From assembly GCA_000092065.1 (NCBI GenBank), contig CP000585.1: a stretch of 64,000 bases of DNA, one strand, 5' to 3'. This document shows positions 2,941-44,769 of the stretch, piece after piece. Under the pieces are notes generated by a model. The model did not search any database. It saw only the letters and a list, made by a program, of their open reading frames with translations, and was not told the DNA's origin. Source of the stretch: Ostreococcus lucimarinus. Its lineage: Eukaryota. The number at the start of each line of letters is the position of its first letter. The stretch's first letter is position 1. The position numbers were made by a program, and so were the translations under genes.

Positions 2941-3168
2941 CCGCTTTGAAGGGTGACGAATCGCCATGTAGCGCCGCGCGATTGCACGCTAAAATCGATA
3001 TAGTGTTGGACCGACCGCGACCGACCGACGGGGCGCGACGGCGCGCGCGCGCGCGAGAACCCGCTTTGAAGGGTGACGAATCGCCATGTAGCGCCGCGCG
3101 ATTGAGCTAAAATCGATATAGTGTTGGACCGATCGCGACGGCGCGACGGCGCGCGCGCGCGCGCGAGA
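2941..3168. repeat. Tandem duplication of a ~120-bp unit (cccgctttgaagggtgacgaatcgccatgtagcgccgcgcgattg...gctaaaatcgatatagtgttggaccga...)
   Basis: Copy A 2941-3060 and copy B 3061-~3168 are near identical, with small indels. Confidence 0.9.
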
Positions 3169-3179
3169 CGCGCGCGCGC

Positions 3180-3300
3180 GAGCGATCGCGACGCGAGACG
3201 CGGGAGACGATGCGGGAGACGTCGCGACGCGAGACGCGGGAGACGACGCGGGCGACGACGCGGGAGACGACGCGACGCGAGACGCGCGACGCGAGGCGCG
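3180..3300. repeat. Microsatellite-like (GAGACGCGG / GACGACGCGG)n tract in the 5' leader of the giant gene
   Basis: Reiterated gagacgcgg gagacgacgcgg gcgacgacgcgg units. Read in frame they give the (RET/TRE)n stretch of the ORF-track protein before the real signal peptide. Confidence 0.7.
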
Positions 3301-3323
3301 AACGTCGAGGAGGGCACGGGACG

Positions 3324-6300
3324 ATGCGGCGATGGCGATGCGTCGACGCCGTGGTCGTCGGCGCGGCGTTGATGTTGATGGCGACGGTGACGTCGGCGTT
3401 GTCGGCGCGCGGCGCGGGCGCGCACCGCGATGCGGAGGGCGAAGGCGATGTCGGCGGCGTCGTCGACGACGCGGCGGACGCGAGCCGCGGCGCGAACGAG
3501 ACGGCGGGGAACGACGCGACGGCCGCGCTCGGCTGGGGATGCGACGAGACGCTCCGAGGGTGGAGAGACGAAGGGTATCGAGGGTGCCAGACGAGGACGA
3601 GGAACGGTCGCACGTGTCAGCAGTGGGATTCGCAGTCGCCCCACGGGCACTCGAGACGAAACTGCGCCAAGGGCTCGTGCGGGCGCGGGAACAACTACTG
3701 CAGAAATCCTGACGGCGAACCCACGATCTGGTGCTACACGACGAACAGAAACGTACGCTGGGAGTATTGCGATCCGTTACCTCAACCGGTGCATTGTGCG
3801 GGACGTTGGGGTTCGTACACGTCGTGCGACGCCTTGTGCGGGAGCGGACGCAAATACAAGACATACACGGTGACCAGAAACGCACAGCACGGCGGCCGCT
3901 CGTGCAGTTATAGCAACGGGGCCAAACACTATGCAGATTGTACCACCTCGTGCGCCGCTCCGACGGTTTCCATCGGTAATCCGTTGACGCGCGTGGCGTC
4001 AAACACTGTTGATTTCGGTCTCTCGGTGAAACACTCCGTGGCGTGCGGCGGCGATTGTCTAACGTCAGCTTGGTCGAGGCGATGGATGGTTAAAATCTTC
4101 GCGACGGTCAGAAAAGACGGCGTTTCGTGTTCATCCTACGGCGCATATCTCCCTTGCAAGCGCTGGGACGATTTTCGAGACGACACGACGCACCCATCCC
4201 AGTTACTGGGATTGACCACGGACACGGGCGCGCTCGATCCGGGAACGTACGTGATCGAGTACGTGGCCGTCTTGAATCACTACATCACGAAGCAAGAGCT
4301 GTCGCGCACGACAGGGACGCACACTTTCTCCATCGAGCGCGGTTGCGAATCGATTTTACCTTCGGCGTCGTCGGACAGCGGCGTGGAAAACTCTGAACTC
4401 ACCAAGTACGTCCTGTTGTCGGCGGATGATTTCGTCCGCGCGCCGTGCGACAAACTTCACGACGTGCGGGAATCGATCTTTCGCAAGTACGACACCAATC
4501 CAACCGACGGCGTACTCGATTACGACGAGCTCGACCGCGCGATTCGCGAACAAGGTGGAGACGGGTACATCTTGAAAGTGTGGAACCAGATTCGCCCGCT
4601 TCGTCTGTCGCTCGGCCACTTCATGGAGGCGATCGTCGCGCCGCACACGTGCGCGTCGTCTGAAAGCGTGCAGTCCGTATCTTTTAAGAGCGTCGTGTAT
4701 CCGTCGACCGAGGCTGGTCGAGAGACGACGCGTAAGGATTGCGCGAAAAACGCCGGAGCGATGGCTGTGGACTGGGGGTACGGACCTAAAAATCCACCTA
4801 AGTCGGGAGACACTGTGTGCGTCTTTGTGGACGGCGTCTTGTTTCAAGTCAACGAGCCGAAAAACACAGCGCCGCCGCACAGTAAGGATCATCACTCCGA
4901 GGTGGCTGGACTGTGGACCCTGACAAAAATTACCGATAAGCGACCCGTCGTGGGTGCGATCGGGGACGTGCAACCGTCTCTCGTCGCGCAGTTCACCTTT
5001 GACACCGAGCGCGAGATTGGAGACACCGTCAGAAGCGATCGCATTTTCTCCGCGGCGCCGCTCGCCTCGGGAGAAAAGGCTAGACCGTACATTTCGTATT
5101 CAGGTCAGCATATATCCGCGTGCTCGGGAGCGTCCGGTGGTCAGTGCATCGTAGCACGCGGAGACGGTTTTAACTACGTCGGCGATTCACTCGGCGGCGC
5201 CGTCGCGTTTTCAGCTTGGGTCAGGGTCGCGGAGAGCTCGGCGACGACGTTGATTGAATTCAGCGGTACGGATGGACAACTGAGGAATTCTTTCACGTTG
5301 GTCATGGACTGTTCTTCATCCGCGTGTACGCTGCGCGCGTCGTACGATTCTGTCGGAACTGGTGGCAATCTCGCAAAGAAAGAAATTTCGGCGCCAATGC
5401 GTCAGTGGGTGCTCGTGGGTTTCACGCTCAGCCATAACGCCGGCTTGAAACTGTTCGCATTGCCGGACGATTCGACGTCGACGACGACTGCGAGTCACCC
5501 CTCGTGGCCGAAAGACACGCTTCCAAAACTTCCAAACATCAAGCTCTTCTCAGCGTCGAGGGGCGGTGGTCAGCAGCACATCGACGACGTTCGATTGTAC
5601 GCCGGCGTCATGGACATGGAAATGTTTTTCATCGCGCGCGACTGCGGACGAGGCACGTTGTGCGCAATGCGCGCGCACGCGACTCCTTCGCATCGCCGCG
5701 TCGTCTGCGTGTTCACGCAAGTCAAGGGCGCGAAGACGGGACAGCCTGCGTGCGCCGGCGCGTTGTACTACGACGGAACGGCGATCGACGTACGCGCATC
5801 GATGGATCTCGCTGGAGTCTTTTTTGAGTTTCGAGACACCGCCTGGGAAGAAAAGTCGTTTGAAATCGAGCGTAGAGCGCCGGCGGTCAACGGTAACTTT
5901 GACTCCAAATTTGATACCGTCGTTCTGATTGAAGGCGGGTTGAAGGGCTGCGCCGCAAAGTTCAGCTCCATCACATACATAGATAGGGATGCCTCGTACA
6001 CGCCCTACTCCGAATGGCTGTATCGCATCACGACGAAGAATCCGGATTCAGACGACGCAAATGAGATAACGTACTTGTTGTCTCCCCAGCTCACTTTCCG
6101 CACGCCTTGGATGTCGCAGATCGAGGGACGCGTGCTGGCCGGCGCGTCCACTGAGGGAGTTCGAAACGTGCGAATGTGTGCAGAATTCGACACATTCGTG
6201 ACGCGCACGCCGGCGACTGAAGATTTTCAAGCTGACGTTGAGTATGAGAATCTCGCCGCTTTCAAAAGTGTGACGCATTCAAACAGAGCTCAAACGTCTA

Positions 6301-9300
6301 CGTCATACGTCGTCACGGATGGCGATGATGCGGGCAAAAGCAGCAACGTCGACGCTAACGAGCACATACGAATCAATCTCGGCAGTTGGGCATCCGTGTC
6401 GACTGTGGAGGTGTGCCATAAACGTCTGGAATCATCGGCGACGTCGATGTTCAGCGCGCACGTCCAAGATTACGACCCGGGTAAAAGTACTTACTTTGGA
6501 CACGATTGTTTGATGGACTCGGTGAGGGACGTGTGCGACGAGACGCTCCGAGGCCAGGGAGGCATAGGGTATCGAGGGTGCCAGACGAAGACGAGGAGCG
6601 GCCGCACGTGTCAGCAGTGGGATTCGCAGTCGCCCCACGGGCACTCGAACCGAAATTGCGCCAAGGGCTCGTGCGGGAACAACTACTGCAGAAATCCTGA
6701 CGGCGCACCCACGATCTGGTGCTACACGACGGACAGATACAAACGCTGGGAGTATTGCGATCCGGATCCGTTACCACACGCGTGTTTGACGTACACGTGT
6801 AAAGGCACCGACGTGAATTCGTTTCACGGACAGTACGTCACCGTGAAAGCCCTGACGAAGGCTCAAGTGACGGAAATCAAGGTCAACGGTCGCAAGACGA
6901 AATGCAAGTACACCGCGGTCACCGACGATGACGGCGAATACGCGATGGATCTCAAAGACACCTCAGGCAAGCTTCCGGTGAAAGCGACGCTGCACATCGG
7001 GGCTTACAAGGAGGAAATTTTCCCTGAAACTACGGAAGTCTTGATTGACTCAAAGAGGAACGCTCAAGGACAGTACCCGGTCCCGAAGAGTCAGGCGCAC
7101 AACGTGTTGCTCATTCTTCGAGAGAATTTCGAAACCTCCGAGCTTGGAATGCTTCGAAACGACAGGCGAACCGAAACCACGTCTTCGCCGCACGCGTCGG
7201 CGAATGGAGTTTACGTGGACGAATTTGCAGCTATGCAAGAGCTCGGATACGACGAGTTTGAAAACGCTGATGAATTTGAAAACGGTTTGCAAAACGACCA
7301 AACAGAGTACGATGTCCATCACGATGGCGGAAATGAGACGGCGGGGAACAACACGACGGCCGCGCTCGGCTGGGGATGCGACGAGACGCTCCGAGGGTGG
7401 AGACACGAAGGGTATCGAGGGTGCCAGACGAGGACGAGGAGCGGTCGCACGTGTCAGCAGTGGGATTCGCAGTCGCCCCACAGGCACTCGAGACGAAACT
7501 GCGCCAAGGGCTCGTGCGGGAACAACTACTGCAGAAATCCTGACGGCGAACCCACGATCTGGTGCTACACGACGGACAGACGCAAACGCTGGGAGTATTG
7601 CAATCCGTTACCTCAACCAGTAAACTGCTACGGTTATTGGGGACAGTGGTCGAATGAGTGTACTCCAACTTGCACGAGCGGCCGACGTTACAGATGGAGG
7701 TACTACAGAATCTCGAGATATCCTAGGCATGGCGGTCTGAGTTGCTCGTACAAAAACGGGCAAAAGGGCTGGGGGTACTGTCCGCCGAAACCGTGTCCAG
7801 TGAATTGTGATGGCAGGTTTGGATCGTGGTCGACGTGTAGTGCGAAGTGTGGTTGGGGCAAGAGACAAAAGACGTTCACAATACACACAGCAGCGGCACA
7901 CGGCGGCCAATCGTGTAGTCACAAGAACGGGTACACGGTAACCGAAAACTGTTATTCCCAACACTGTCCGCCACCCCCGCCGCCACCCCCGCCACCAGGC
8001 GCCGCCGAGGTGGAGGAATTCATCGAGTGGGTGCTTTTGAAGGGCGTCGAATCAAATCGAAAAGGGCATGTCGAAAGGACGCTAACAGGGTCAGGATGGA
8101 CGGCGGGTGCTGTGAGTAAACGCGCCATTCGTGGAGCATCCGATACCGTTCGAGGCGTCTCCGCCGTGTGCAAAGAGTCGACGAGCCAACACAGGATGAT
8201 TGCGATGAATTCACAGTCGACTGCGGATTCCACCTCTTACCAAAGTCTTGATTTCGCAATTTACTGTTTTCCTTGGAACTCGGTGAGTTATGTACGAGTC
8301 TATGAGAGAGGCAAAGCTTTTGGGAATGCTGCAAAGGCGTATAGTGAGAGCGCCGTCGTTCAGATCGCGCTCAACGATGCCGGCAAGGTGGAGTATTTCG
8401 TGGACGGTTTGAAGCTCATGACGAGCGATCAGACGGTGACGTATCCACTTCACGTTGATGTGAGCCTACACGAACAAGGCGCGTCGCTGGAGGATGTGCG
8501 CTGGACTAGGAGAGTCTCGTCACCTCCGCCCTCACCTCCACCTTCGCCGCCTCCGTCCCCTCCGCCTTCGCCGCCTCCGCCCCCTCCGCCTTCCCCGCCT
8601 CCGCCGAATCACGAACTCGAGGACGTTGATTTCGACGGATCGGGTAATGTGATGCGGAGCGAGTTGGTCGACTACATTGAAGCTATCACAATATCGTCCG
8701 AAGGTGGCCACGTCATCATTACGGACGATGTATGGGCGAAGCTCGATCGGGATGAAGACGGCGTGCTCGACGCGACTGAATTTAAGGACGTTGTGAACCG
8801 TATCGAGGCGCAACAGTTGGTCGTGGAGCCAATCATCGTGTTCCCACTTCAAGATGCCCAGTACATGTACGATTTCAGCATGTTTCAGACGTCTGACGAC
8901 GCTGCAAATAGCGGCCCGCGCACGGGCCACGTGCTAGAAGGCGGCGAATCGTGTGAAAATTTGATGATTGTGAGAAGTCGCTCCGCCACTCTGCCGTTCG
9001 GAAACGCTCAATGGACAAAATTTTACGAGACATTGCGAGACGAGCAACACCGTTTCGAGTGCAGAAATCTGAGTAAAATCGAGGTTCCAGCAATCGACGT
9101 CGGCGCGGTGGACAGCACGTACGTCATACCCGTGCTCGCGCACAAGAACGGCACGAATTACCTCATACTCGACACCACGTCCGTCGCGGTGCATACGTCG
9201 AACGAGACGAAAGCGTTGGATATGATGCATCGAATGACTCGAGATAACTTTCGTCTGCGCGTTCAAGCCCAAAAGCGGCTTCCGGATATCTTGCACAGCT

Positions 9301-12300
9301 TTAACAAGCCTCCCGTGCCGCGGGGTGCGTTGCCCGAGGCGCCGAGTGACGAGGAAATCGTCGAACAGGTATTTTCAGATCAAGTGGCGTTGGATAGGGT
9401 CACTTTATCAGTCAAGCATAAACGCGTCGAAGAGAAAGACTTTACGGATGACACGACAGTTATCGTAAACGGTGCCGTACTGTTCCCCAGGGATCTCGTC
9501 GAACAATCCAACGACTGCGGACTCTTCAAGGCGACTATTGAAGTATTCGAACCCGAAGGAGAAGTTGAGGAATACCATACGGATGAGCGAGGCTTCTTCA
9601 AGTTTGCTCTCACTCGTGGGAAAACGTTCAACATACGCCCAAAATACAAGAATCACACGATATGCTACGCTGGCAAAACCATAGAGAACGCTGTCGAAGA
9701 CGTGCACACATGCAAAGGACGCAGCGTGGTCAAGACGCTTCCAAACGTTCAAGATGGCAACTTTGTATTTTTCACCGACGTCACGCGAGGTGTCATCGAC
9801 CTTGGACTATACCACGGAGAGTGTGAACGGCGATACAGCGGTGCTGTGTTTAAGATCACGCCGATCAATGGATGCCACGCTCCAAAGTTTGTGAAGAGCG
9901 AAGAAGTTGAAGGGTGGAATGTCGCAAACACCGGGATGAGTGAGGACGCTAAATTTTGGCCGTTCGCCGCCATGGATTACTCGATCAAGCTCGTGTCGGG
10001 GCCTGACGTGAATGGCATCCAACCGTTGATTGAGAATGAGCCGTGGGCGGACGGATGTGGTACGGAGCCTGGCTCGATGGTGGCTTTCTTTCGATCACGA
10101 AACGCCCATGAACGAATGGCGGCCATGCGCGACGACTACGATTTGGTGACAATTCGGTACAAGTATCACGGCTACATTTGCGTTGAGATCGTGGACATTC
10201 CCAAAATACGAGATCCATTGGAAGTCTGTTACGATCCAAACGAAGCGGACGGTAATCTCACGATTCAACATTTCCTCGGAACTACGACTTCCGAAGATTT
10301 GGGCAGCGTGAGCGGTCAGATTCTTCTCCAAGCGAAAGTGTTCGAATTGCATCTTGATCAAGTCGACGGCGAGCCTGTGCTTTCAAAATGCTTTGAAGCG
10401 TTACCTAACAAGGAAGCTCAGACGGGCAGCACTCTGCTCAGTTTCAGACAGTCGGTCACCGATGAAGACGACAATGAGTGCCATCCAAACCGAGGCGGCG
10501 GACCACTGTGTGATTTTGACACGACGATCGAGCCTGCGTCCGAACTCGTCATTTGGAATACAGACGGTGATACCAGCGTGGAGGTCGTCGCTGGTACGCC
10601 TAATCTCGCCGGTAATCATCGACGAACTGTGGAATTCACCATCAAGCGCTTCGATACGTACAAACTCGTCACCGCGTACGCAAAGCGTGAGCTCATACCT
10701 CTGGGCTCGAAACCTCGAGGAGAAGGGCTCTTCGGACCGGACAGTGACGATGTCTACTGGGCGACTGTGCCTTTGGAGGGTTTGGTCTACACCGTCGTGC
10801 ACGATCCACCCGGTGGTCTCTCGTACGCGGAATTATCGACGGGCTCTCAAATTGGACTTCAGTTTGACTTGGTTGGGAAACGTATGGCGAGCGAGGGCAA
10901 AGGTGGGGCGTCGAAGAAACAACTTCCCGAAATCGATAAGTCCGTCGATGTTGGTTTCAACGCCGGATGGATCGCCGAAGGTTCTTTGTCGACGGACCTG
11001 CATTTGATCTCGTCAAAAGGCGAGTTCAAAACTAAAACGGATGGTCCAACGATGCGTATAACGAGCAAAGAAGACAAGGGGTGGAGTCTCGAAACCACGA
11101 CAGAACGAACGATTCGTTCGAGCAAGGACGCAGGTACTCCTGGGAGAGCAGGCGATGTCATTCTCGGCGGTGGTATCGAGCTCGTGTACAAAATATCGGA
11201 CATCTTGGATGTCGTAAACGATGTTCGAACACTCAAAAAGCCTTGCTTGTACGTGTATGGCGAAATCACGTGGTTACCGCGAAAGCCGACGTCGTACATC
11301 ATGAGCGTCGCGTCGATCGAGACACAAGTCATGCCTAATCTGTACTACTTGCGAACGTTGGTGCAGGAAGGTGGCATCGAAGCAGACGGGTCGGAAATGT
11401 TTTATGACTGCGCTTCCGGCGCGACGAGTAAAGAAATGACCAAGTGCACGAAAGAGGATCAAATCGAAGCTTGGATGCAATATCTCGACAACAAGATTGA
11501 CCTTTGGCGTCGAACACTTGAATGGTCTTCTCCGAAAGTGTTCACCATCGATGAGGGTGGTGTGAAGACGAAGTTTTACGAAGCCATCGAGAGAATCACA
11601 AAACCGGCGTCTGATGGTGGTTTTATGCACACGAACTACAAAGTCCAGGTGGAACAATTCAAGAAGGCGTACGCCAGACCGATTAAGGATATTATCGAAG
11701 AGGTCGGCAGTGCTTGGGATTCAAGTTTCTTCATGATGCCTTTCAACGGTATCGGCCCACCACCGTTTTTTGACGACCCGAGAGTAATTGGTGGCGTGGA
11801 TTGGATGCTTGATTCGCGGTACTGGGAGTATGGTAAAGGCGACACAGCTACGTACAGTAGAATCCGTGGGATTACACCTCGGACGGATTCTGACGCGAGA
11901 ATCGCCGCTTTTGCCTCCTTGGATGCCATTGTCAATACCGGAGGCATCATCGACACGGTGACGAAGAATTTAGACGCGCCGAAGAAACTCGCCGCCCGTC
12001 GCAAGGCGGCTGCCGCCGCTGCTGCTAAGATAAGTAAATCGTATGCTGCTAAGCAAAGGCTATTAAAGGCGGCCTCTAAATGGAAAAGTCTTGCAAAGAA
12101 ACCACCGCCGGGATTCATCACGAGATCCGCCCAAAAGCTCACGGCGGCCAAGAACATGGCCACAAAGGCGGCCAAGACCACAGCCGGACAAGTTGCGGGC
12201 GCCATCTTGCTCAGCGCGGCGGTAGCGGGCGCAGTCGCAGCTGGCCCGGCGATGGATCAGATGGGCTACAAGTATGCCGCCTATCCACGCAAGTATTACG

Positions 12301-14834
12301 AGGATGGCATACCGGCATTTGAAGAAAACTTCTTCGACGATGATTCTGGAGTGCTCACAAAAGAAGACCAAGCCAAAGATGAAGACGGGATGCGAGGAGC
12401 CTATACGTGGGGGATGTTCAGTTCGGCGACGAACGATTTGTTGCGACAATTTAAAAGTTGTGCCGGGAGAGAGTGCAATCGCGATGATATCAGAGTCGAA
12501 ACGCTGTCGATGAGCAACACATCTTTCGGCGAAGACTACTTACTTTGGAACACAAATGACGCACCTGATGTGTCGCGGAGGGTCGTGGCGTCCTTCACGG
12601 GTGGACAAGCTGCTACGGGTATGAATGTGACGACGAACGTGAACGCTACAGACGGTGTACCCGACAAGGGGACGTTATTATTGACGTTCGGCGGCGGTGG
12701 TCACACCGCAGATTATTCATTTTCTTCGAATGAAAAGATTGCAGATCTTCACACCAGCCTCGGTGTTCAACTGTCAGCAAAGCAGTCCAACAAATACAAA
12801 CTCAAACTCGGAGGCTTGCTCGGCTCGACCGTTCAACTTGCCATGGCGCTCGGCGGGGTGGACGATGAGGCTGTCTATACCTTCAAAAAGTCATTCGCTG
12901 AAGATCGAACGTTCGCTTGGAACAGACACGCCTCTCTGAAAACGTTGTACAGTCTAGGTGACGCTCAACTCGGAGATAAGTTTGTCGTGCAGGTTGGAGA
13001 AGACGTGCGCTTTGGTACGCCGGTGTTCATCACAAAGGGTGGCAGAAGCTCGTGTCCCGGTGAACCTTTGACGATGTTTCGACAGGCGGGCTTTTCCTTA
13101 TCCAAAGAAACTTCGTTTAACGAAAATCTGAATCCTGATGAAAGTGCTTTGTTACACTTGAAATTGACCAACGAGTCGCCGTACAAGGAAACGTTTCCGC
13201 TCGGAATGCGCATTGTTGACGGTCTCGTGATGTCGGTCCACAAAGTGATTCAGGACATGTACGAAACGCTGGCCAAGGAAGACGTGACAGGGTTGGACGT
13301 TTTGAAAGCCGTCGATAATTCGATCGCGTCGCTCGCTATCGGGAAAGATGCCGACGTCATCAAAACAATGAAAGAAAACGCGCGAGTGGCCGTGGAAGAA
13401 CACTCGGCGACAGCAGTGGACGTCGCAGCGGTGGTTGTACAAGCCTCGCGGAGAGCTCCACCAACGTTTGAAGACTTGCAGAACATCGAGTTCAGTATGG
13501 GTGGAGAGGAAGTATACTTTGGCGACGTATTACCTCTAAAATTTGTGGACGGTGAAGATTTGAAAGTTCAGAAGAAGGTACTTGAGACGTCTTTCGCGCT
13601 TACCGTGACGGCTGCGAGCCCGTCGAGTCTTCGACTGGAGCACGTCGCCGTCGTCGTCATGAGTTTATGCGAACACGAAATCAGCCTAATGTCAAAGTTC
13701 GGTCGAGAACCGATCAGCACGAACACTCTTCCGCTAGGATTGATGACGTGGAATCAAAAGTGTCCGAAAGTCGCCTTCGACGGTTCCACAGTGGCGGATT
13801 ACTTGTTCTCGAGCGTCTCATCTGCCACGCCCAAGCCACTCAAGTTGACCGTCTTCAATCCGGACGGAGCTTTGTTATGGCCTGGCTCTTCGGATGACGT
13901 CCGAGCTATCAACCCGAATCTTCGATTCGTTCGGTTGCAATATCGTCCCGCGAGCGGCGGCGAATGGATCACGGCAAAGTCTGAAGACAGCGATCCAAAG
14001 TTCAGTTACAAGAAAAACCTGTTATGCGACGGGTCACGTCTCGGTGGTTGCACTTTTGACTGGGACGTCAATAACCAGTACGAAAAGCTTCTCAGTGGCT
14101 TTAAGGATAACATTTACGAGTTGAGATTGAAGAACTTTTGCTTTGGCACGGAAAGTCGTCCGATCAGCGCCTTGGCGGACAGCACCGTTCACGAGTACGT
14201 CTCTGATCAAATCCTCACGCTCAGAGTGGACACCAAGACGCCGATTCCCGGCAGGTCGTATCCTTCGTTCAAGCGATTTTACACTGTCGAGTTCCCCGAA
14301 GCGATCGACTGCTCGGATCAAAAAGTTGCCATCACGAAGAAACGCGCATCCTGCGGAGACGACGGGCAAAGCGTCAATCAAGCCGTGAGCGAAGACGCAA
14401 TCAAGTCAGGCTTTGACTTCCAATGCTCCAATAACGAGGTTGGCTTCAAGTGGATGGTTGGATTTCCTAACACTGAAGTGGGTCAGTACGCCGTCGAAGT
14501 GAGCGGTGTTCGTGACGAAGCCGGGAACGCCGCCGCGCCGTTTACCTTCGTCATGGACGCGAACTGCGCGTCTTCTCAAAAGCTGTCCCTCGCGCGCTTC
14601 GGTCTAGGCGCGAAGAAACGGTCGACTGAGGAAACGGGCGATGTGCCAACGAGTGCATTTGACGTTCCAATCACATCGATGCCCGGCACGTGGGTTCTCG
14701 CGGGGTGCTGCCTCGTCGCCGTCTTCGCCGTCGTCGTCGGCGTTTTCCGTCGCGCGCCGCGCGTCGAGGACAAGGAAAAATCTCCACTCTCCTTTGTCGC
14801 CCGTCGACACCCGCCGTACGGCGCGGTGGTGTAA
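3324..14834 (+). CDS. Giant secreted type-I membrane glycoprotein (3,836 aa, single exon): signal peptide, 3 kringles, 3 TSP1 repeats, LamG/ConA-like segment, poly-Pro and SPPP repeats, EF-hand pair, large uncharacterised region, C-terminal TM helix
   Basis: Signal peptide MRRWRCVDAVVVGAALMLMATVTSALSA from ATG 3324. Kringle consensus: CDETLRGWRDEGYRGCQTRTRNGRTCQQWDSQSPHGHS..NYCRNPDGEPTIWCYTT..WEYC, three times. TSP1: WGSYTSCDALCGSGRKYKTY...GGRSCS, YWGQWSNECTPTCTSGRRYRWRY..., FGSWSTCSAKCGWGKRQKTFT.... EF loops: DFDGSGNVMRSE and DRDEDGVLDATE. Extensin-like: SPPPSPPPSPPPS. C-terminal TM: GTWVLAGCCLVAVFAVVVGVF then RRAPR. Confidence 0.85.
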   Translation: MRRWRCVDAVVVGAALMLMATVTSALSARGAGAHRDAEGEGDVGGVVDDAADASRGANETAGNDATAALGWGCDETLRGWRDEGYRGCQTRTRNGRTCQQWDSQSPHGHSRRNCAKGSCGRGNNYCRNPDGEPTIWCYTTNRNVRWEYCDPLPQPVHCAGRWGSYTSCDALCGSGRKYKTYTVTRNAQHGGRSCSYSNGAKHYADCTTSCAAPTVSIGNPLTRVASNTVDFGLSVKHSVACGGDCLTSAWSRRWMVKIFATVRKDGVSCSSYGAYLPCKRWDDFRDDTTHPSQLLGLTTDTGALDPGTYVIEYVAVLNHYITKQELSRTTGTHTFSIERGCESILPSASSDSGVENSELTKYVLLSADDFVRAPCDKLHDVRESIFRKYDTNPTDGVLDYDELDRAIREQGGDGYILKVWNQIRPLRLSLGHFMEAIVAPHTCASSESVQSVSFKSVVYPSTEAGRETTRKDCAKNAGAMAVDWGYGPKNPPKSGDTVCVFVDGVLFQVNEPKNTAPPHSKDHHSEVAGLWTLTKITDKRPVVGAIGDVQPSLVAQFTFDTEREIGDTVRSDRIFSAAPLASGEKARPYISYSGQHISACSGASGGQCIVARGDGFNYVGDSLGGAVAFSAWVRVAESSATTLIEFSGTDGQLRNSFTLVMDCSSSACTLRASYDSVGTGGNLAKKEISAPMRQWVLVGFTLSHNAGLKLFALPDDSTSTTTASHPSWPKDTLPKLPNIKLFSASRGGGQQHIDDVRLYAGVMDMEMFFIARDCGRGTLCAMRAHATPSHRRVVCVFTQVKGAKTGQPACAGALYYDGTAIDVRASMDLAGVFFEFRDTAWEEKSFEIERRAPAVNGNFDSKFDTVVLIEGGLKGCAAKFSSITYIDRDASYTPYSEWLYRITTKNPDSDDANEITYLLSPQLTFRTPWMSQIEGRVLAGASTEGVRNVRMCAEFDTFVTRTPATEDFQADVEYENLAAFKSVTHSNRAQTSTSYVVTDGDDAGKSSNVDANEHIRINLGSWASVSTVEVCHKRLESSATSMFSAHVQDYDPGKSTYFGHDCLMDSVRDVCDETLRGQGGIGYRGCQTKTRSGRTCQQWDSQSPHGHSNRNCAKGSCGNNYCRNPDGAPTIWCYTTDRYKRWEYCDPDPLPHACLTYTCKGTDVNSFHGQYVTVKALTKAQVTEIKVNGRKTKCKYTAVTDDDGEYAMDLKDTSGKLPVKATLHIGAYKEEIFPETTEVLIDSKRNAQGQYPVPKSQAHNVLLILRENFETSELGMLRNDRRTETTSSPHASANGVYVDEFAAMQELGYDEFENADEFENGLQNDQTEYDVHHDGGNETAGNNTTAALGWGCDETLRGWRHEGYRGCQTRTRSGRTCQQWDSQSPHRHSRRNCAKGSCGNNYCRNPDGEPTIWCYTTDRRKRWEYCNPLPQPVNCYGYWGQWSNECTPTCTSGRRYRWRYYRISRYPRHGGLSCSYKNGQKGWGYCPPKPCPVNCDGRFGSWSTCSAKCGWGKRQKTFTIHTAAAHGGQSCSHKNGYTVTENCYSQHCPPPPPPPPPPGAAEVEEFIEWVLLKGVESNRKGHVERTLTGSGWTAGAVSKRAIRGASDTVRGVSAVCKESTSQHRMIAMNSQSTADSTSYQSLDFAIYCFPWNSVSYVRVYERGKAFGNAAKAYSESAVVQIALNDAGKVEYFVDGLKLMTSDQTVTYPLHVDVSLHEQGASLEDVRWTRRVSSPPPSPPPSPPPSPPPSPPPPPPPSPPPPNHELEDVDFDGSGNVMRSELVDYIEAITISSEGGHVIITDDVWAKLDRDEDGVLDATEFKDVVNRIEAQQLVVEPIIVFPLQDAQYMYDFSMFQTSDDAANSGPRTGHVLEGGESCENLMIVRSRSATLPFGNAQWTKFYETLRDEQHRFECRNLSKIEVPAIDVGAVDSTYVIPVLAHKNGTNYLILDTTSVAVHTSNETKALDMMHRMTRDNFRLRVQAQKRLPDILHSFNKPPVPRGALPEAPSDEEIVEQVFSDQVALDRVTLSVKHKRVEEKDFTDDTTVIVNGAVLFPRDLVEQSNDCGLFKATIEVFEPEGEVEEYHTDERGFFKFALTRGKTFNIRPKYKNHTICYAGKTIENAVEDVHTCKGRSVVKTLPNVQDGNFVFFTDVTRGVIDLGLYHGECERRYSGAVFKITPINGCHAPKFVKSEEVEGWNVANTGMSEDAKFWPFAAMDYSIKLVSGPDVNGIQPLIENEPWADGCGTEPGSMVAFFRSRNAHERMAAMRDDYDLVTIRYKYHGYICVEIVDIPKIRDPLEVCYDPNEADGNLTIQHFLGTTTSEDLGSVSGQILLQAKVFELHLDQVDGEPVLSKCFEALPNKEAQTGSTLLSFRQSVTDEDDNECHPNRGGGPLCDFDTTIEPASELVIWNTDGDTSVEVVAGTPNLAGNHRRTVEFTIKRFDTYKLVTAYAKRELIPLGSKPRGEGLFGPDSDDVYWATVPLEGLVYTVVHDPPGGLSYAELSTGSQIGLQFDLVGKRMASEGKGGASKKQLPEIDKSVDVGFNAGWIAEGSLSTDLHLISSKGEFKTKTDGPTMRITSKEDKGWSLETTTERTIRSSKDAGTPGRAGDVILGGGIELVYKISDILDVVNDVRTLKKPCLYVYGEITWLPRKPTSYIMSVASIETQVMPNLYYLRTLVQEGGIEADGSEMFYDCASGATSKEMTKCTKEDQIEAWMQYLDNKIDLWRRTLEWSSPKVFTIDEGGVKTKFYEAIERITKPASDGGFMHTNYKVQVEQFKKAYARPIKDIIEEVGSAWDSSFFMMPFNGIGPPPFFDDPRVIGGVDWMLDSRYWEYGKGDTATYSRIRGITPRTDSDARIAAFASLDAIVNTGGIIDTVTKNLDAPKKLAARRKAAAAAAAKISKSYAAKQRLLKAASKWKSLAKKPPPGFITRSAQKLTAAKNMATKAAKTTAGQVAGAILLSAAVAGAVAAGPAMDQMGYKYAAYPRKYYEDGIPAFEENFFDDDSGVLTKEDQAKDEDGMRGAYTWGMFSSATNDLLRQFKSCAGRECNRDDIRVETLSMSNTSFGEDYLLWNTNDAPDVSRRVVASFTGGQAATGMNVTTNVNATDGVPDKGTLLLTFGGGGHTADYSFSSNEKIADLHTSLGVQLSAKQSNKYKLKLGGLLGSTVQLAMALGGVDDEAVYTFKKSFAEDRTFAWNRHASLKTLYSLGDAQLGDKFVVQVGEDVRFGTPVFITKGGRSSCPGEPLTMFRQAGFSLSKETSFNENLNPDESALLHLKLTNESPYKETFPLGMRIVDGLVMSVHKVIQDMYETLAKEDVTGLDVLKAVDNSIASLAIGKDADVIKTMKENARVAVEEHSATAVDVAAVVVQASRRAPPTFEDLQNIEFSMGGEEVYFGDVLPLKFVDGEDLKVQKKVLETSFALTVTAASPSSLRLEHVAVVVMSLCEHEISLMSKFGREPISTNTLPLGLMTWNQKCPKVAFDGSTVADYLFSSVSSATPKPLKLTVFNPDGALLWPGSSDDVRAINPNLRFVRLQYRPASGGEWITAKSEDSDPKFSYKKNLLCDGSRLGGCTFDWDVNNQYEKLLSGFKDNIYELRLKNFCFGTESRPISALADSTVHEYVSDQILTLRVDTKTPIPGRSYPSFKRFYTVEFPEAIDCSDQKVAITKKRASCGDDGQSVNQAVSEDAIKSGFDFQCSNNEVGFKWMVGFPNTEVGQYAVEVSGVRDEAGNAAAPFTFVMDANCASSQKLSLARFGLGAKKRSTEETGDVPTSAFDVPITSMPGTWVLAGCCLVAVFAVVVGVFRRAPRVEDKEKSPLSFVARRHPPYGAVV
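3507..3790 (+). repeat. Kringle-encoding DNA repeat, copy 1 (near-identical at nucleotide level to copies 2 and 3)
   Basis: The segment ggccgcgctcggctggggatgcgacgagacgctccgagggtgga...tgcgccaagggctcgtgcggg...aactactgcagaaatcctgacggcgaacccacgatctggtgctacacgacg recurs at 7343-7615, with few substitutions over >240 bp. Confidence 0.9.
6534..6770 (+). repeat. Kringle-encoding DNA repeat, copy 2
   Basis: Same unit: tgcgacgagacgctccgaggccagggaggcatagggtatcgagggtgccagacgaagacgaggagcggccgcacgtgtcagcagtgggattcgcagtcgccccacgggcactcgaaccgaaattgcgccaagggctcgtgcgggaacaactactgcagaaatcctgacggcgcacccacgatctggtgctacacgacggacag. Confidence 0.9.
7343..7615 (+). repeat. Kringle-encoding DNA repeat, copy 3
   Basis: Near-identical to copy 1, including 30 bp of upstream flank (gggaacaacacgacggccgcgctcggctgggga...). 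Confidence 0.9.
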
Positions 14835-14944: not shown

Positions 14945-15946
14945 ATGATTCGAATCGTCACTCGCGCGCGCGACGCGGCGGCGTCGATGGGCGACGGCGC
15001 GACGACGACGACGACGCACCGGTTCGAGCGACGCGGTCTCGTCTTCGACGCGCGCGTGCGGCACGACGCCGAGGCGCGCGCGCTCGACGTCGCGCTGCGT
15101 CGCACCGACCGCGCGCGCGCGACGACGACGCGGTACGCGGGCGCGTTCGACGGCGCGTGGATCGAGCGCGTCGCGAACCGCGCGCGCGCGGCGACTTTCG
15201 ATCGACTTCGAATCGTCGACGGCGAGCGTCGCGCGCGGTCGGAGGCGGAGGCGGAGGCGGTGGGGCGGTTGGCGCGGGCGCTGCGACGAGGGATGGACGG
15301 CGGCGACGACGCGAGCGCGGCGGACGCGATGAGCGAAAAGACGCTGCGGCGGTTGCGGGACGGGCAAGACGCGGACGACGACGATGGCGTCGAGACGCGG
15401 TACGTGTTGATCGCGACGGAGATCGCGGAGGATGGGACGCGGACGCGCGTGCCGTTGCCGCTGGACCGCGTCGACGCGCGAATCGCGGCGGCGGCGGCGC
15501 GGTCGGGGAGGGACGAGACGAAAGCGAACGAGGACGCGGCGGCGCGGCTGAGGGATGCGTTGAGGGCCACGACGCGGGAGCGCGATGAGATGCGGCGCGC
15601 GTTGGAGCGACGAGCGAAGGCGCAGACCAGGGCGGCGTTGAAGGCGCAGGCGGCGGAGGCGAAGACGAAGGCGAAAATCGTCGAGCTCGAGGCGGAAAAC
15701 GAAGCGTTGCGCGAGAACGAAACGAAATTGAAGGTTAAAGTGCGCGATCTCGGGGCGACGTTGAAGTCGATACAGCGCACGCGAGGTGGCGCGGCGATCG
15801 CGGCGGCGCCGGTCGTCGGCCGCCGCGTCGTCGCGTCGCCGCCGCGACGCTCCTTCGTCGACGCCGGGGACGAAATGCTCGATGAAATCGACGCGAGATT
15901 GCACTCGCTGCAGACATTTCTGGCGCGCGCGAAGGACACGAAATGA
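14945..15946 (+). CDS. Hypothetical protein with N-terminal globular region and C-terminal coiled coil (333 aa from first ATG)
   Basis: ORF 14690-15946. The upstream part overlaps the 3' end of the giant gene, so the start was moved to ATG 14945 (MIRIVTRARD...). The C-terminal half has a heptad-like pattern: AKIVELEAENEALRENETKLKVKVRDLGATLKS. Confidence 0.5.
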   Translation: MIRIVTRARDAAASMGDGATTTTTHRFERRGLVFDARVRHDAEARALDVALRRTDRARATTTRYAGAFDGAWIERVANRARAATFDRLRIVDGERRARSEAEAEAVGRLARALRRGMDGGDDASAADAMSEKTLRRLRDGQDADDDDGVETRYVLIATEIAEDGTRTRVPLPLDRVDARIAAAAARSGRDETKANEDAAARLRDALRATTRERDEMRRALERRAKAQTRAALKAQAAEAKTKAKIVELEAENEALRENETKLKVKVRDLGATLKSIQRTRGGAAIAAAPVVGRRVVASPPRRSFVDAGDEMLDEIDARLHSLQTFLARAKDTK

Positions 15947-16022: not shown

Positions 16023-17981
16023 TTACGCGAGTCGTTCGCGGCGCTCGCGCTTCGGTCTCTCCGCCGCCTGTCGCTTCGGGAGCTCGCGATCGAAAACGTC
16101 GTCCCACGACTCTCCACGATGCCGTCCACAAAGAATTTTCACCACGGCGTCGATGTTGAGGACGGTGTGCGTTTGCTCGGGCCTGTGTTCGCGAATGGGT
16201 AATCGCGCGCATCGAAACGAACTCGCGTTCGCTCGCGTCAGGCTCGTCCGCATCCCTCGCGTCGCTAAATCGACGATGCCTCCGACCACGTACACCTTAC
16301 TCGCGTCCACTTCATCCAAAACCTCGGAAGCGTCCGGCGACATGTACACGACGTCGCGCGCGTCGAACGCCTCCTCAACGCTTCGCGGGTCCATCTTCAC
16401 CGAAGACCATCGATCGCTGAAGAAAAACTCTCGCGACTCTTCCGCGATGGGACCGCTGAAGTCACAATACGTCATCGCGAGTGCGTCTTCGCGGTGCGCG
16501 ATGCCGACGCACTCGCAGAGCTGCTTCGCCACGCTGCGTCTCGCTCGCGTGGAATCTTGCTCGTACGAGACGTCCACGGCCACGCGCAAGGCGTCCGGGT
16601 TACTAAACCGTTCCGATAGTTCGACGTTGGACTTCTTCTTCGACTTCTTTTCCCATTGCTTCTCGCTCTTGCCCGCGGCGTTCGCGAGCGCGTCTTCGAC
16701 GGTGAACGCGACGCTCGGCTCGAGCGGCGCCGTCGCCGTCGATCCGAGCGCCGTCGTCATGAACGATTTACCGAATCTGCACAAGCTCACCTCGGTGACG
16801 TTCTCGTACCCCAAAGCGCGCATTTCGTGCGCGATGGGAACACCGCTGATGAAGACGTGCCTCTCGGCGACGTCGCGAAACTTTTCAAGCGCGGGCGCGT
16901 ACTCGGACGCGCTCGCGCCCGGCGCGCTTCTCCCGTCGCCGTCGCCGCCGCCGAGCGCGACGCGGCGACCGAACGGTAAATTCGCGACGAGCGCGCGCAC
17001 GCGCTTACCTTTGCACCCGTACGCATCGTCAAAAGCACCAGGAACCAAAGCGTCGCGCTCGATCACGTTCGGCATCGCCGATGACTCGGGCGCGCGCGCG
17101 ACAAAGTGGCTGAGATTTTGCTTGGCCATGACGACGGCGCCCGGCGACACGTCGCCGCCCGCCGCGGCGAACCCACGCGTCCACGCCGCGTGGAGCATCG
17201 TTCCCGACCCACAACACGGATCGACGATGACGCTGTCACCGCTTCGAGCGTCGAACGCGCGCGGGTCGTGCGCTGAGGCGACGTTGACGCACGCGAGCGC
17301 GATTTCCGCGCGCGTCCCCGCGCTGAAATGCCGCGGCTTTCTCGCCCAATCCACCGCGCGCGCGCTCGGGCTCGACGGCGACGGCGCGTACGTCACCAAA
17401 CCGAACACGTACCCCCCCAAACCCTCCACCACCGCGAATCGCATCGCGTTCGACCGCTCGTCTCGCGAATCGTCGAGCCCGCGCGCGCTCCATCGCGCCA
17501 CGACGCCGCGAAATCGCCTCGACACCTCGTCGCTCGACATCCTCCTCGCGTTCCTCGCCACGCAGTCGTGATAAAACGCCACCGCGCGCGTCTCCACGCG
17601 CACTCTCATTCCCTCGACCGTCTCCAGCAGCTCCTCCGCGCTCGCCGCGCACGCCAACGGCATGATCTCCGCCCGCGTCCCCGCGCACGCCCGCGTCGTC
17701 CCGTCGCCGCCGTTCGCCGCCGCGAACATCCCCGCCTCCATCGCCCGCGCCGCCGGCCTCGTCACCGCCGCCACTTCGCACGCGTACGCGTTGTACAGAT
17801 TCTCGTTCTTGTGCGTCAGCACGATCCTCGGCGTCGTCGTCGTCGTCGTCTCGCGCTTCGTCGTCGTCCCGCCCGCGTCGTCCCTCGCCCACAGCCTCGC
17901 GCACGCCGCCGCGCCCTCGCGCGACGACAGCGCCCAGATCGCTAACACGTCGTCGTCGCACGCGCGTTCGCGGTCGTTCAT
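16023..17981 (-). CDS. Bifunctional tRNA methyltransferase fusion: THUMP domain + class-I (Rossmann) guanine-N2-type MTase + lysine-rich linker + TRM10-type SPOUT tRNA m1G9 MTase
   Basis: MTase motif I: VIVDPCCGSGTMLHAA. Motif IV: LVANLPFG (NPPY-like). THUMP-like region upstream. C-terminal 170 aa match TRM10/TRMT10: VYMSPDASEVLDEVDASKVYVVGGIVDLATRGMRTSLTRANASSFRCARLPI...HTVLNIDAVVKIL. The ORF runs on to 19043, but that part is antisense to SGF11, so the start was set at ATG 17981 (MNDRERACDDD). An alternative ATG lies near 18110. Confidence 0.7.
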   Translation of the reverse strand: MNDRERACDDDVLAIWALSSREGAAACARLWARDDAGGTTTKRETTTTTTPRIVLTHKNENLYNAYACEVAAVTRPAARAMEAGMFAAANGGDGTTRACAGTRAEIMPLACAASAEELLETVEGMRVRVETRAVAFYHDCVARNARRMSSDEVSRRFRGVVARWSARGLDDSRDERSNAMRFAVVEGLGGYVFGLVTYAPSPSSPSARAVDWARKPRHFSAGTRAEIALACVNVASAHDPRAFDARSGDSVIVDPCCGSGTMLHAAWTRGFAAAGGDVSPGAVVMAKQNLSHFVARAPESSAMPNVIERDALVPGAFDDAYGCKGKRVRALVANLPFGRRVALGGGDGDGRSAPGASASEYAPALEKFRDVAERHVFISGVPIAHEMRALGYENVTEVSLCRFGKSFMTTALGSTATAPLEPSVAFTVEDALANAAGKSEKQWEKKSKKKSNVELSERFSNPDALRVAVDVSYEQDSTRARRSVAKQLCECVGIAHREDALAMTYCDFSGPIAEESREFFFSDRWSSVKMDPRSVEEAFDARDVVYMSPDASEVLDEVDASKVYVVGGIVDLATRGMRTSLTRANASSFRCARLPIREHRPEQTHTVLNIDAVVKILCGRHRGESWDDVFDRELPKRQAAERPKRERRERLA

Positions 17982-18218
17982 TCGCACGCGGTCGCGCGCG
18001 CGCGCGAACTCGTCGTGGCGCGCGTCGACGATCGCCGTCGGTGGAAACCGCCCACCCTTCGAGCTCTTCGACGCGCGCGCGCGCACGCGACGACGCGCCG
18101 CGCGGGGCATCGACGCGCGTACGTACGATCGCGCCATCGATCGCGCCATCGCGCGCGTCGCGCTGTCGCGTCGTCGCGCGCGGACGCGCGAATGAATCAT
18201 CGACCGCACTGCGCGCCG

Positions 18219-18536: not shown

Positions 18537-18582
18537 GCGACGGCGAGCGACGGCGACGGCGAACGCGAGGACGAACGACGGG

Positions 18583-18975: not shown

Positions 18976-19079
18976 CGCGCGCGATTCGGATGGTTCGAAA
19001 GGTGCGATCGTCGCTGGGTGTAATTTATGGTACAACAATACAAACAAAACTGCGAGAATTTCGCGCCTTTTCGGCGTTT

Positions 19080-30814: not shown

Positions 30815-30847
30815 AAATCGGGTTAAATCTTCATCTACTTTTTACTT

Positions 30848-44731: not shown

Positions 44732-44769
44732 CGGCGTCGCGTTGTCGCGCGCGAAGCGACACTTCGCGC

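What the first reader, a model, noticed from the sequence alone, without database searches (positions are those of the whole stretch)
3507..7615. Three kringle modules are near-identical at the DNA level and GC-rich, embedded in a much lower-GC gene body
Copies at 3507-3790, 6534-6770 and 7343-7615 share >240 bp of almost identical nucleotide sequence, including ~30 bp of non-kringle flank for copies 1 and 3. They are ~70% GC, whereas the intervening and downstream coding DNA of the same gene is ~48-58% GC by my per-line counts. That pattern suggests recent intragenic duplication or ongoing gene conversion of the kringle cassette, or import of the cassette from a GC-richer source. Antisense artefact ORFs (MPVGRLRIPLLTRA...) recur three times for the same reason.
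Basis: seen in the sequence. Interest (0 to 1): 0.6.

Follow-up and report, generated by a model that had tools for sequence, protein, structure and literature searches.

The report
Three kringle cassettes swapping sequence in-gene
A giant cell-surface protein gene of the tiny marine alga Ostreococcus lucimarinus holds three scattered kringle-domain copies that are almost identical in DNA, because they were copied within the gene recently and still overwrite one another by gene conversion; this is a clear new example of a well-known process.

Summary
The DNA observation is real. The three kringle cores (3540-3770, 6534-6758, 7377-7601) are 92-96% identical in nucleotides. They use the same codon at 61-69 of 64-69 shared residues, against about 29 expected. 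K1 and K3 also share 45 nt of 5' flank and about 20 nt of 3' flank. The GC claim is overstated: the units are 62-63% GC, not about 70%, in a 54% gene body. The excess lies in GC3 (78% vs 62%), which is normal for neighbouring genes.

The window is Ostreococcus lucimarinus. The host is one intron-less 3,836-aa ORF (signal peptide, kringles, TSP1, EF-hands, C-terminal TM helix). The O. tauri ortholog has no kringle at any of the three sites and has one at a fourth site. More distant homologs also lack K1 or K2.

Five independent assemblies keep three copies at the same spacing. Their alleles are mosaics of the paralogs. Divergence between haplotypes is 4-8x higher in the kringles than in the rest of the gene. 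The single-copy O. tauri kringle shows no such excess and no raised GC3.

Best reading: lineage-specific in-frame cassette copying, then ongoing intragenic gene conversion, probably GC-biased. Foreign import, assembly artefact and pure protein constraint are not supported. This is a new member of a known kind, of moderate interest.

The parts
3324..14834 (+). Single uninterrupted ORF of 3,836 aa (ATG 3324 to stop), the host gene. It has an N-terminal signal-like hydrophobic stretch (3351-3404), 3 kringles, TSP1 repeats, EF-hands (about 8622-8801), Pro-rich spacers (7968-8000, 8517-8555) and a C-terminal TM helix (14691-14747). About 2,000 aa have no family match.
   Evidence: ORF list and translation. 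Pfam. Coordinates. Homologous proteins start at MRRWRC. O. tauri ortholog P0172 is 3,762 aa. No PDB sequence match for the C-terminal 2,044 aa.
3495..3790 (+). Kringle unit K1: 5' flank NETAGNDATAALGWG (3495-3539), kringle core C1..C6 (3540-3770), linker DPLPQPV (3771 to about 3790). It carries a 6-nt insertion (extra Arg-Gly, about 3684-3689).
   Evidence: The flank motif is present at the same N-terminal site in O. tauri, P0002 and P0007, so it is ancestral to this site.
6534..6775 (+). Kringle unit K2: core 6534-6758 plus linker GATCCGGATCCGTTACC. The linker shares GATCCGTTACC with K1's linker, with GATCCG doubled. It is a clean insertion between ...CLMDSVRDV and ACLTYTC.
   Evidence: The site is empty in O. 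tauri P0172 and in P0216 and P0217.
7332..7621 (+). Kringle unit K3: copied 5' flank NETAGNNTTAALGWG (7332-7376), core 7377-7601, linker NPLPQPV (7602 to about 7621). It lies directly before a TSP1 repeat.
   Evidence: The site is empty in O. tauri. A 6-nt GCGGGC insertion at 7515 is present in L001, L006 and L004/L008 but absent in the window.
3792..3917 (+). TSP1 repeat after K1. It is similar in protein to the one after K3 but diverged in DNA, and it marks the 3' limit of the homogenised tract.
   Evidence: Pfam TSP1_spondin/TSP_1 on residues 4-42 of the 3792-6530 fragment, below the curated cut-off. DNA alignment.
7623..7967 (+). Two TSP1 repeats after K3. They are present in O. tauri without the kringle.
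   Evidence: Pfam. Protein alignment.
6451..6777 (-). Antisense ORF across K2. Others lie across K1 (2989-4002 and 3107-3613, minus strand) and K3 (7231-7668, minus strand). These are composition artefacts of the repeat and not genes.

Best explanation
The window is Ostreococcus lucimarinus nuclear DNA. One intron-less gene encodes a giant, probably type-I, surface protein. In the lineage leading to O. lucimarinus, a roughly 240-300-nt kringle cassette was copied in frame to new, non-homologous places within this gene.

Origin of the copies (inferred):
- K1 is the oldest site, because it is shared with the closest relative found (P0002).
- K3 was copied from the K1 site together with 45 nt of K1-specific upstream flank. 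Its 3' end lies where both sites already had a TSP1 repeat, so TSP1 homology may have anchored one end of the event.
- K2 is kringle plus linker only.

Maintenance (the comparative and population patterns are shown; the mechanism is inferred from them): since then the three copies have kept exchanging short tracts by non-reciprocal intragenic (ectopic) gene conversion. This has two effects. It holds the paralogs at dS of 0-0.07. It also turns differences between paralogs into allelic variation, so natural haplotypes carry different mosaics.

GC3 (less certain): the cassette's raised GC3 (78% vs 62%) is most simply the mark of GC-biased conversion in a repeatedly converted tract. Alternatively it is left over from a recent donor with genome-typical GC3.

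Function (inferred): the kringles are probably ligand-binding modules. The residues that vary lie in loops that correspond to the lysine-binding pocket of plasminogen kringles.
For: Organism:
- Five neighbouring ORF products are exact matches to sequences in the collection that sit in the same clusters as Ostreococcus lucimarinus CCE9901 proteins on an 847,696-bp contig; three of the five carry that accession themselves.
- The NCBI partial kringle models P0222 and P0223 are identical to K3 and K1.

DNA-level identity:
- Shown: - Paralog dS is 0 (K1-K3) and 0.066 (K1-K2, K2-K3). The same gene body against the nearest relative L002 has dS 0.37, and against O. tauri it is saturated.

Lineage-specific sites:
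- O. tauri P0172 has no kringle at the K1, K2 or K3 sites and has one at a fourth site.
- P0216 and P0217 lack K2. P0007 lacks K1.
- The orthologous K1 pair (O. lucimarinus vs L002) is far more diverged (dS about 1.0, dN 0.49) than the flanking gene (0.37, 0.14).

Not an assembly artefact:
- L001, L004, L006 and L008 each carry three copies with start-to-start spacing of 2994 and 843 or 849 nt.

Conversion:
- Mosaic alleles and a distance matrix that disagrees with copy position.
- 53 of 136 pairs of informative sites are incompatible, and a PHI-type permutation test gives p = 0.027.
- Allelic divergence is 4.3-4.6% in the kringles vs 0.6-1.0% elsewhere (p = 2e-15, 3.5e-12, 2.3e-7). Both pS and pN are raised.
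- Control: the single-copy O. tauri kringle is not more diverged between strains than the rest of its gene.

GC:
- GC3 is 77-79% vs 62%.
- Single-copy kringles match their host genes: O. tauri 58 vs 59%, L002 70 vs 67%.
- Pessia et al. 2012 (PMC5635611) report patterns consistent with gBGC in O. lucimarinus.
Against: - The population evidence comes from short-read metagenome assemblies. Two records (P0161, L007) are plainly repeat-induced chimeras, so some mosaicism could be artefactual. Against that, diagnostic sites are less than about 70 nt apart, and K2's first diagnostic block starts 20 nt from unique flank. Paralog mis-threading at large k is therefore unlikely.
- The PHI-type test is only moderately significant, and the data are 10 distinct sequences of 231 nt.
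- Every difference between K1 and K3 is non-synonymous (8 vs 0). Loop-directed selection on a very recent duplicate could give part of this pattern without conversion.
- The 6-nt indel could recur by slippage, since it is an imperfect GCGGG(C/A) doublet.
- No polarised AT-to-GC substitution test was done, so the gBGC step remains an inference.
- The phylogenetic position of the metagenomic homologs (P0002, P0007, P0216, P0217) is inferred only from percent identity.
Confidence: 0.68

Rival explanations
1. Very recent intragenic duplication only. K2 and K3 are young copies of K1 that have not had time to diverge, and no conversion is going on.
For: K2 and K3 are absent from O. tauri and from other homologs. 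dS is 0-0.07. Identity blocks have sharp ends, as expected for copied segments.
Against: - K2 alleles differ by 6.7% between strains whose gene bodies differ by 0.6%, and hap-B K2 is nearer to K1 and K3 than to hap-A K2.
- Many site pairs are incompatible.
- K1 is shared with the L002 lineage, yet its ortholog pair is about 3x more diverged than the flanks.
- The single-copy O. tauri kringle shows no excess allelic divergence.
Confidence: 0.15
2. Assembly artefact: the triplication, or its near-identity, arises from collapsed, expanded or mis-threaded repeats.
For: The repeats do confuse assemblers. P0161 joins K3's upstream flank to K1's downstream sequence, and L007 is rearranged.
Against: Four independent metagenome assemblies from different samples reproduce three copies in unique flanks with the same spacing. 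The ORF stays open across all three. NCBI models of the reference genome match K1 and K3 exactly.
Confidence: 0.02
3. Protein-level constraint plus codon bias alone keeps the DNA similar, with no recent event.
For: This kringle type is highly conserved, with 84% amino-acid identity to Micromonas kringles.
Against: - 61-69 of 64-69 shared residues use the same codon, against about 29 expected.
- Identity extends into 45 nt of non-kringle flank.
- Against the O. tauri kringle, BLAST aligns only 175 nt, at about 70% identity.
Confidence: 0.01
4. The cassette was imported from a GC-richer foreign source, such as a virus, a bacterium or another eukaryote.
For: GC3 is 16 points above the host gene and 18 points above the expectation from amino-acid content.
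Against: - GC3 of 78% is typical of neighbouring O. lucimarinus genes, which range 65-88%.
- The nearest kringles are Mamiellales proteins.
- There are no viral matches.
- A degenerate CQQWDSQSPH DNA pattern found only this gene in JGI metagenomes.
- An intragenomic donor gene is not excluded.
Confidence: 0.04
5. Selected diversification. The three cassettes act as a reservoir that reshuffles ligand-pocket loops of a surface receptor, under virus- or grazer-driven selection.
For: - pN/pS in the kringles is 2.2-2.4 between alleles and 1.25 or higher between paralogs.
- Variable residues fall at positions aligned to plasminogen K4 residues 32, 35, 57-58 and 67-70, next to the lysine-binding pocket. 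The alignment is; the pocket residues are from my own knowledge.
- The whole gene has pN/pS of 1.7-1.8, against 0.47 in a neighbouring gene.
Against: - Counts are small (0-3 synonymous changes).
- Nei-Gojobori counting is biased when GC3 is skewed.
- pS is raised as much as pN in the kringles, which conversion alone explains.
- There are no functional data.
Confidence: 0.1

Closest known systems
Apolipoprotein(a) kringle IV type 2 repeats (human LPA)
   Same: Kringle modules repeated within one gene and nearly identical at the nucleotide level, kept alike by recombination or conversion. The domain is clearly homologous (E about 1e-18 to apo(a) and plasminogen kringles).
   Different: KIV-2 units are tandem, each made of two exons with introns, and highly variable in copy number (from my own knowledge). 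Here the copies are dispersed (2,994 and 843 nt apart, separated by unrelated coding sequence), lie in an intron-less ORF, and number three in every assembly examined.
Concerted evolution of paralogous sequences by interlocus (ectopic) gene conversion
   Same: Paralogs are more alike than orthologs. There are mosaic tracts and sharp tract ends. Allelic diversity is raised inside the converted region, which is the dual effect described in PMC3966223 (abstract seen).
   Different: Donor and acceptor are domains of one and the same ORF, only 0.8-3.8 kb apart. The tracts are very short, at most about 300 nt in total and apparently tens of nt per event.
Kringle as the classic exon-shuffling module (Patthy; symmetrical phase 1-1 modules in animal proteases)
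   Same: The same domain has been placed at different positions in orthologous genes: four different sites across O. lucimarinus and O. tauri. It also occurs in many unrelated Mamiellales architectures.
   Different: There are no introns at any cassette boundary. The insertions are in-frame DNA copies inside a continuous ORF. Intron-mediated shuffling cannot be read from the present sequence. Past introns that were later lost are not excluded.
GC-biased gene conversion
   Same: GC3 is raised only in the multi-copy, converting cassette and not in single-copy orthologous kringles. [quoted passage not shown]
   Different: Here it would act on a 230-nt ectopic tract and not on an allelic recombination hotspot. 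The direction of the substitutions was not tested.

Membership tests
Kringle domain (Pfam PF00051) | Profile score above the curated threshold | tested here: met
   173.4 bits vs cut-off 34.3, with three stretches. phmmer E of 1e-18 to 5e-18 to plasminogen K4 and apo(a) KIV chains.
Kringle domain (Pfam PF00051) | Six conserved cysteines in the C1-C6, C2-C4, C3-C5 spacing | tested here: met
   All three units have Cys at CDETL, GCQT, RTCQ, NYCRN, IWCY and WEYC. They also have an extra pair (NCAKGSC). Disulfide connectivity itself was not tested.
Kringle domain (Pfam PF00051) | Lysine-binding pocket: anionic residues 55/57, cationic 35/71, aromatic 62/64/72 (plasminogen K4 numbering, from my own knowledge) | tested here: inconclusive
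   The alignment places D, E, R, W, Y and W at positions 55, 57, 71, 62, 64 and 72 in K1 and K3. K2 has Ala at 57, and hap-B K1 has Ser-Thr. No structure or binding test was done.
Concerted evolution by gene conversion | Paralogs within a genome are closer than orthologs between species | tested here: met
   K1-K3 dS is 0 and K1/K3-K2 dS is 0.066. K1 in O. lucimarinus vs K1 in L002 has dS about 1.0, while the flanks have dS 0.37.
Concerted evolution by gene conversion | Mosaic tracts, or phylogenetic incongruence between copy position and sequence | tested here: met
   Site table and distance matrix. 53 of 136 site pairs incompatible, PHI-type p = 0.027. The sequences are short-read assemblies.
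Concerted evolution by gene conversion | Excess allelic diversity confined to the repeated tract, and absent where the tract is single-copy | tested here: met
   4-8x excess in O. lucimarinus. No excess in the single-copy O. tauri kringle.
Concerted evolution by gene conversion | Direct observation of conversion events on phased molecules | not testable with these tools
   Needs long reads, clones or mutation-accumulation lines.
apo(a)-type tandem kringle array | Head-to-tail tandem units with variable copy number | tested here: not met
   The copies are dispersed, with spacing 2,994 and 843 nt. Every full assembly has three copies.
Exon-shuffled module | Introns at both module boundaries | tested here: not met
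   There is one continuous ORF across all boundaries. No transcript data were available to exclude cryptic splicing.
GC-biased gene conversion tract | Local GC3 excess relative to flanks and to single-copy homologs | tested here: met
   78% vs 62% (expected 59%). O. tauri 58 vs 59% and L002 70 vs 67%.
GC-biased gene conversion tract | Excess of AT-to-GC over GC-to-AT among polarised changes | not tested
   There are too few sites and no reliable outgroup DNA for the cassette.
Horizontally acquired segment | Composition outside the host range and nearest relatives in another lineage | tested here: not met
   GC3 is within the neighbouring genes' range. The nearest kringles are Mamiellales. No viral hits.

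The most novel reading that the evidence does not exclude
The three kringle cassettes form a small built-in variation system. Short conversion tracts among them continually reshuffle the ligand-pocket loops of a giant surface receptor, and the resulting diversity is kept by selection, for example from prasinoviruses or grazers. This would be a eukaryotic-algal counterpart of the cassette-based surface variation known in pathogens. A linked claim is that kringle-sized coding cassettes can move in frame to new sites of intron-less genes in Mamiellales: there are four different sites in two sister species, and a 1-vs-2-copy difference in a Micromonas gene.
Probability: 0.12. Interest if true: 0.7.

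Novelty: new member of a known kind. Interest (0 to 1): 0.4.

Why it matters
- It is a clean natural example of domain gain by in-frame DNA copying without introns. Sister species carry the same domain at four different places in one orthologous gene.
- It also shows intragenic gene conversion doing two things at once: keeping paralogous domains alike and creating allelic mosaics in wild populations of a haploid picoalga.
- It gives a small, well-delimited tract of about 230 nt in three copies, with single-copy controls in O. tauri. That allows ectopic and possibly GC-biased conversion to be measured in Mamiellales.
- It flags a 3,836-aa surface-protein gene that the O. lucimarinus reference annotation seems to represent only as two tiny partial models. 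The gene's raw pN/pS above 1 makes it a candidate for host-virus or cell-cell recognition studies.

Tried and rejected
- Exact-product look-ups of the giant ORF from either start codon found nothing.
- The first whole-protein homology search timed out.
- The kringle-only search was limited to short proteins (52 candidates). It therefore could not list full-length proteins that carry the closest kringles.
- A kringle-deleted query returned only 6 hits and, oddly, neither the self cluster nor the O. tauri cluster.
- The degenerate DNA pattern scan found no second locus that could be a donor and nothing in viral contigs.
- My first 'both states present in paralogs' test was badly designed, because it counts replacement of a K2-specific state as a non-match. 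I do not rely on it.
- A first dS run used the wrong frame (first line) and was redone.
- Sawyer-type run tests on single pairs gave only p of 0.02-0.04 without multiple-test correction.
- PDB sequence search and Pfam found nothing for the C-terminal roughly 2,000 aa.
- Full-text searches found no paper that discusses kringles in Ostreococcus or other Mamiellophyceae. The one paper that contains both words is about choanoflagellate GPCRs.
- Structure prediction was not run. It would not bear on the DNA-level question.

Full report
OBSERVATION

A single ORF runs from 3210 to 14834 on the + strand, and the likely start is the ATG at 3324. Pfam finds three Kringle domains (173 bits against a cut-off of 34.3), TSP1 repeats and EF-hands. 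tblastn finds exactly three kringle-coding segments in the 64-kb window.

The cores run from the first to the last kringle cysteine: 3540-3770, 6534-6758 and 7377-7601. After a 6-nt insertion in K1 is removed, nucleotide identity is 96.4% (K1-K3), 92.0% (K1-K2) and 92.4% (K2-K3).

The identity is at DNA level and not just at protein level. Among residues that are identical between copies, 69/69, 61/64 and 63/66 use the same codon. About 28-30 would be expected from this gene's codon usage.

K1 and K3 also share 45 nt upstream (coding NETAGNxxTAALGWG) and about 20 nt downstream. After that, identity falls to background, even though a TSP1 repeat follows both copies. The recurring antisense peptide is confirmed and is trivial.

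The GC statement is overstated.
The cores are 61.8-61.9% and the rest of the gene is 54%.
- Only 3.9% of 231-nt windows in the gene body reach 62%.
- The excess is in third codon positions: 77-79%, against 62% in the rest of the gene and 59% expected from the kringle's amino acids with the gene's codon usage.
- Neighbouring genes have GC3 of 65-88%. The cassette is therefore genome-typical, and the giant gene body is at the low end.
- Intergenic spacers in this window are 70-77% GC. That explains the very GC-rich stretch just before K1.

WHAT AND WHERE

Five neighbouring ORF products are exact matches to collection entries clustered with Ostreococcus lucimarinus CCE9901 proteins on an 847,696-bp contig. 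Three of the five carry that accession themselves. Two NCBI 'partial' models of 66 and 74 aa on that contig are identical to K3 and K1. The giant ORF itself does not appear as one annotated product.

The protein has a signal-like N-terminus and a C-terminal TM helix, so it is probably a type-I surface protein. Roughly 2,000 aa match no family and no solved structure.

COMPARATIVE ANATOMY

The O. tauri ortholog (P0172, CEF99734.1, 3,762 aa) aligns along its whole length. It has no kringle at the K1, K2 or K3 sites. It has one kringle at a fourth site, where O. lucimarinus, P0002 and P0007 have none.
- K2 is a clean insertion. It is also absent from two further homologs, P0216 (53% identity) and P0217 (40%).
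- The K1 site holds a kringle only in O. lucimarinus and its nearest relative found (P0002/L002, 84% nucleotide identity). O. tauri and P0007 have a different Cys-rich segment there.
- The flank motif NETxGxxxxAxLG is present at the N-terminal site in all four species and is not present at the K3 site of O. tauri. K3 was therefore copied from the K1 site with its flank.

The copies are much younger than, or have been homogenised since, the split from the nearest relative.
- The gene body has dS of 0.37 against L002, and is saturated against O. tauri.
- The paralogs have dS of 0-0.066.
- The orthologous K1 pair is far more diverged (dS about 1.0, dN 0.49) than the flanks. Its central loop cannot be aligned.

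POPULATION EVIDENCE

An ENA contig (L001) was found. A degenerate DNA pattern scan of JGI metagenomes then gave five more loci, all from this same gene. Viral contigs gave none.

L001, L004, L006 and L008 each hold three kringles at spacings of 2994 and 843 or 849 nt. The triplication is therefore not an assembly artefact.

The kringles fall into at least three haplotype groups, and their alleles are mosaics of paralog states.
- In haplotype B, K2 has the K1/K3-type 5' block, the 6-nt insertion and K3-type middle sites. It differs from the window's K2 at 15 sites, but from the window's K3 at 5 and K1 at 7.
- Haplotype C and P0170 have other breakpoints.
- K3 carries the K1-type 6-nt insertion in L001, L006, L004 and L008, but not in the window.

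Divergence between haplotypes is 4.3-4.6% in the kringles against 0.6-1.0% in the rest of the gene (p = 2e-15 to 2e-7). Both pS and pN are raised. 53 of 136 pairs of informative sites are incompatible, and a PHI-type permutation test gives p = 0.027.

As a control, the single-copy O. tauri kringle is no more diverged between strains than the rest of its gene. It also has no GC3 excess: 58 vs 59% in O. tauri, and 70 vs 67% for K1 in L002.

CAVEAT

These are short-read assemblies. P0161 and L007 are clear repeat-induced chimeras. However, diagnostic sites are less than about 70 nt apart, and K2's first diagnostic block begins 20 nt from unique flank. Paralog mis-threading at the large k used by these assemblers is therefore unlikely. 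Haplotype B also has private variants that are found in no copy of haplotype A.

MECHANISM

Shown:
- The copies are identical at DNA level.
- The insertion sites are lineage-specific.
- K3 carries flank from the K1 site.
- Alleles are mosaic, and excess allelic divergence is confined to the multi-copy tract.

Inferred:
- In-frame copy-insertion, possibly anchored at the 3' side by pre-existing TSP1 homology.
- Continuing short-tract intragenic gene conversion after the copying.
- GC-biased conversion as the cause of the GC3 excess. Pessia et al. 2012 (PMC5635611) report gBGC-like patterns for O. lucimarinus. A recent donor with typical GC3 remains possible.

SELECTION

Differences among the kringles are mostly non-synonymous. 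K1-K3 has 8 non-synonymous and 0 synonymous differences, and allelic pN/pS is 2.2-2.4. They lie in loops that align next to the lysine-binding pocket of plasminogen K4 (alignment; pocket residues from my own knowledge). The counts are small, so this is a lead and not a result.

COMPARISON WITH KNOWN SYSTEMS AND VERDICT

The domain is a bona fide kringle. The behaviour is concerted evolution by gene conversion, and it echoes the near-identical apo(a) KIV-2 kringles. Here, however, the copies are dispersed, fixed at three, and in an intron-less ORF. It is neither a tandem array nor an exon-shuffling case as read from the present sequence.

No paper in the library discusses kringles in Mamiellophyceae.

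I rate it a new member of a known kind, with moderate interest (0.4). The more novel reading is a selected cassette-reshuffling system in a surface receptor, together with intron-free domain mobility. It is not excluded, but it is weakly supported (probability about 0.12).

Noticed in passing
window 3324-14834: The 3,836-aa ORF seems not to be annotated as one gene in the O. lucimarinus CCE9901 reference. Only two 'predicted protein, partial' models of 66 and 74 aa (P0222, P0223) match K3 and K1. The O. tauri ortholog, in contrast, is annotated as a 3,762-aa protein (CEF99734.1).
   Followed up: partly
window 3324-14831 vs L004, L005, L008: Outside the kringles, the whole giant gene has more non-synonymous than synonymous divergence between natural haplotypes (pN/pS 1.7-1.8; for example 92 N vs 15 S changes against L005). 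The part of neighbouring ORF 16023-19043(-) that L005 covers (to 18068) gives 0.47. This suggests relaxed or diversifying selection on a surface protein. Nei-Gojobori bias was not excluded.
   Followed up: partly
O. tauri P0172 aa about 684-756 (L003 about 2527-2742): The O. tauri ortholog carries its single kringle at a fourth site, between RPSLQSKVG and KACSGASGGKC. That kringle lacks the first two conserved cysteines.
   Followed up: partly
L002 about 690-915 (P0002 aa 99-173): In the nearest relative, the kringle at the K1 site has a central loop that cannot be aligned (GFWPLEFQIGQSHIFGGNAIRH), and only the six canonical cysteines. Its precomputed Pfam domains list no Kringle. Either it is decaying, or the O. 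lucimarinus K1 was overwritten.
   Followed up: partly
P0020 vs P0055 (Micromonas commoda-like proteins): Two otherwise near-identical Micromonas proteins differ by having two kringles or one. These kringles are 82-84% identical in amino acids to the O. lucimarinus cassette, including the CDETL start and the WEYCDPLP end. The module seems to be dynamic across Mamiellales.
   Followed up: no
window 3161-3304 and 3000-3165: A GC-rich 12-nt tandem repeat (GACGCGGGAGAC-like) lies just upstream of the start codon. It has a 12-nt deletion polymorphism in L001 (3254-3265). There is also a 48-nt direct repeat beginning ATAGTGTTGGACCGA at 3000-3047 and 3118-3165.
   Followed up: no
whole window, e.g. 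2500-2900, 15000-15500, 25000-26000, 30000-32000, 36000-38000, 44000-46000: GC rises to 70-79% in gene spacers and 5' ends, while long coding regions sit at 50-60%.
   Followed up: partly
L003 about 4050 and 4210: An O. tauri-like metagenome contig has two in-frame stop codons in the orthologous gene (CYKNT*SKLP, GVN*FHGQ). This could be sequencing error, or a pseudogenised allele in that population.
   Followed up: no
P0161 (TARA_145 scaffold) and L007 (JACLAB010009002.1): These public assemblies are chimeric at the kringle repeats. In P0161, K3's upstream flank is joined to K1's body and downstream sequence. L007 has inverted and rearranged blocks. Public gene models of this locus are therefore unreliable.
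   Followed up: yes
window 42854-44059: The + strand ORF here has GC1 of 0.74 and GC3 of 0.53, the reverse of every other gene in the window. It overlaps a minus-strand ORF of similar length (42941-44050). The real gene is probably on the other strand or in another frame.
   Followed up: no
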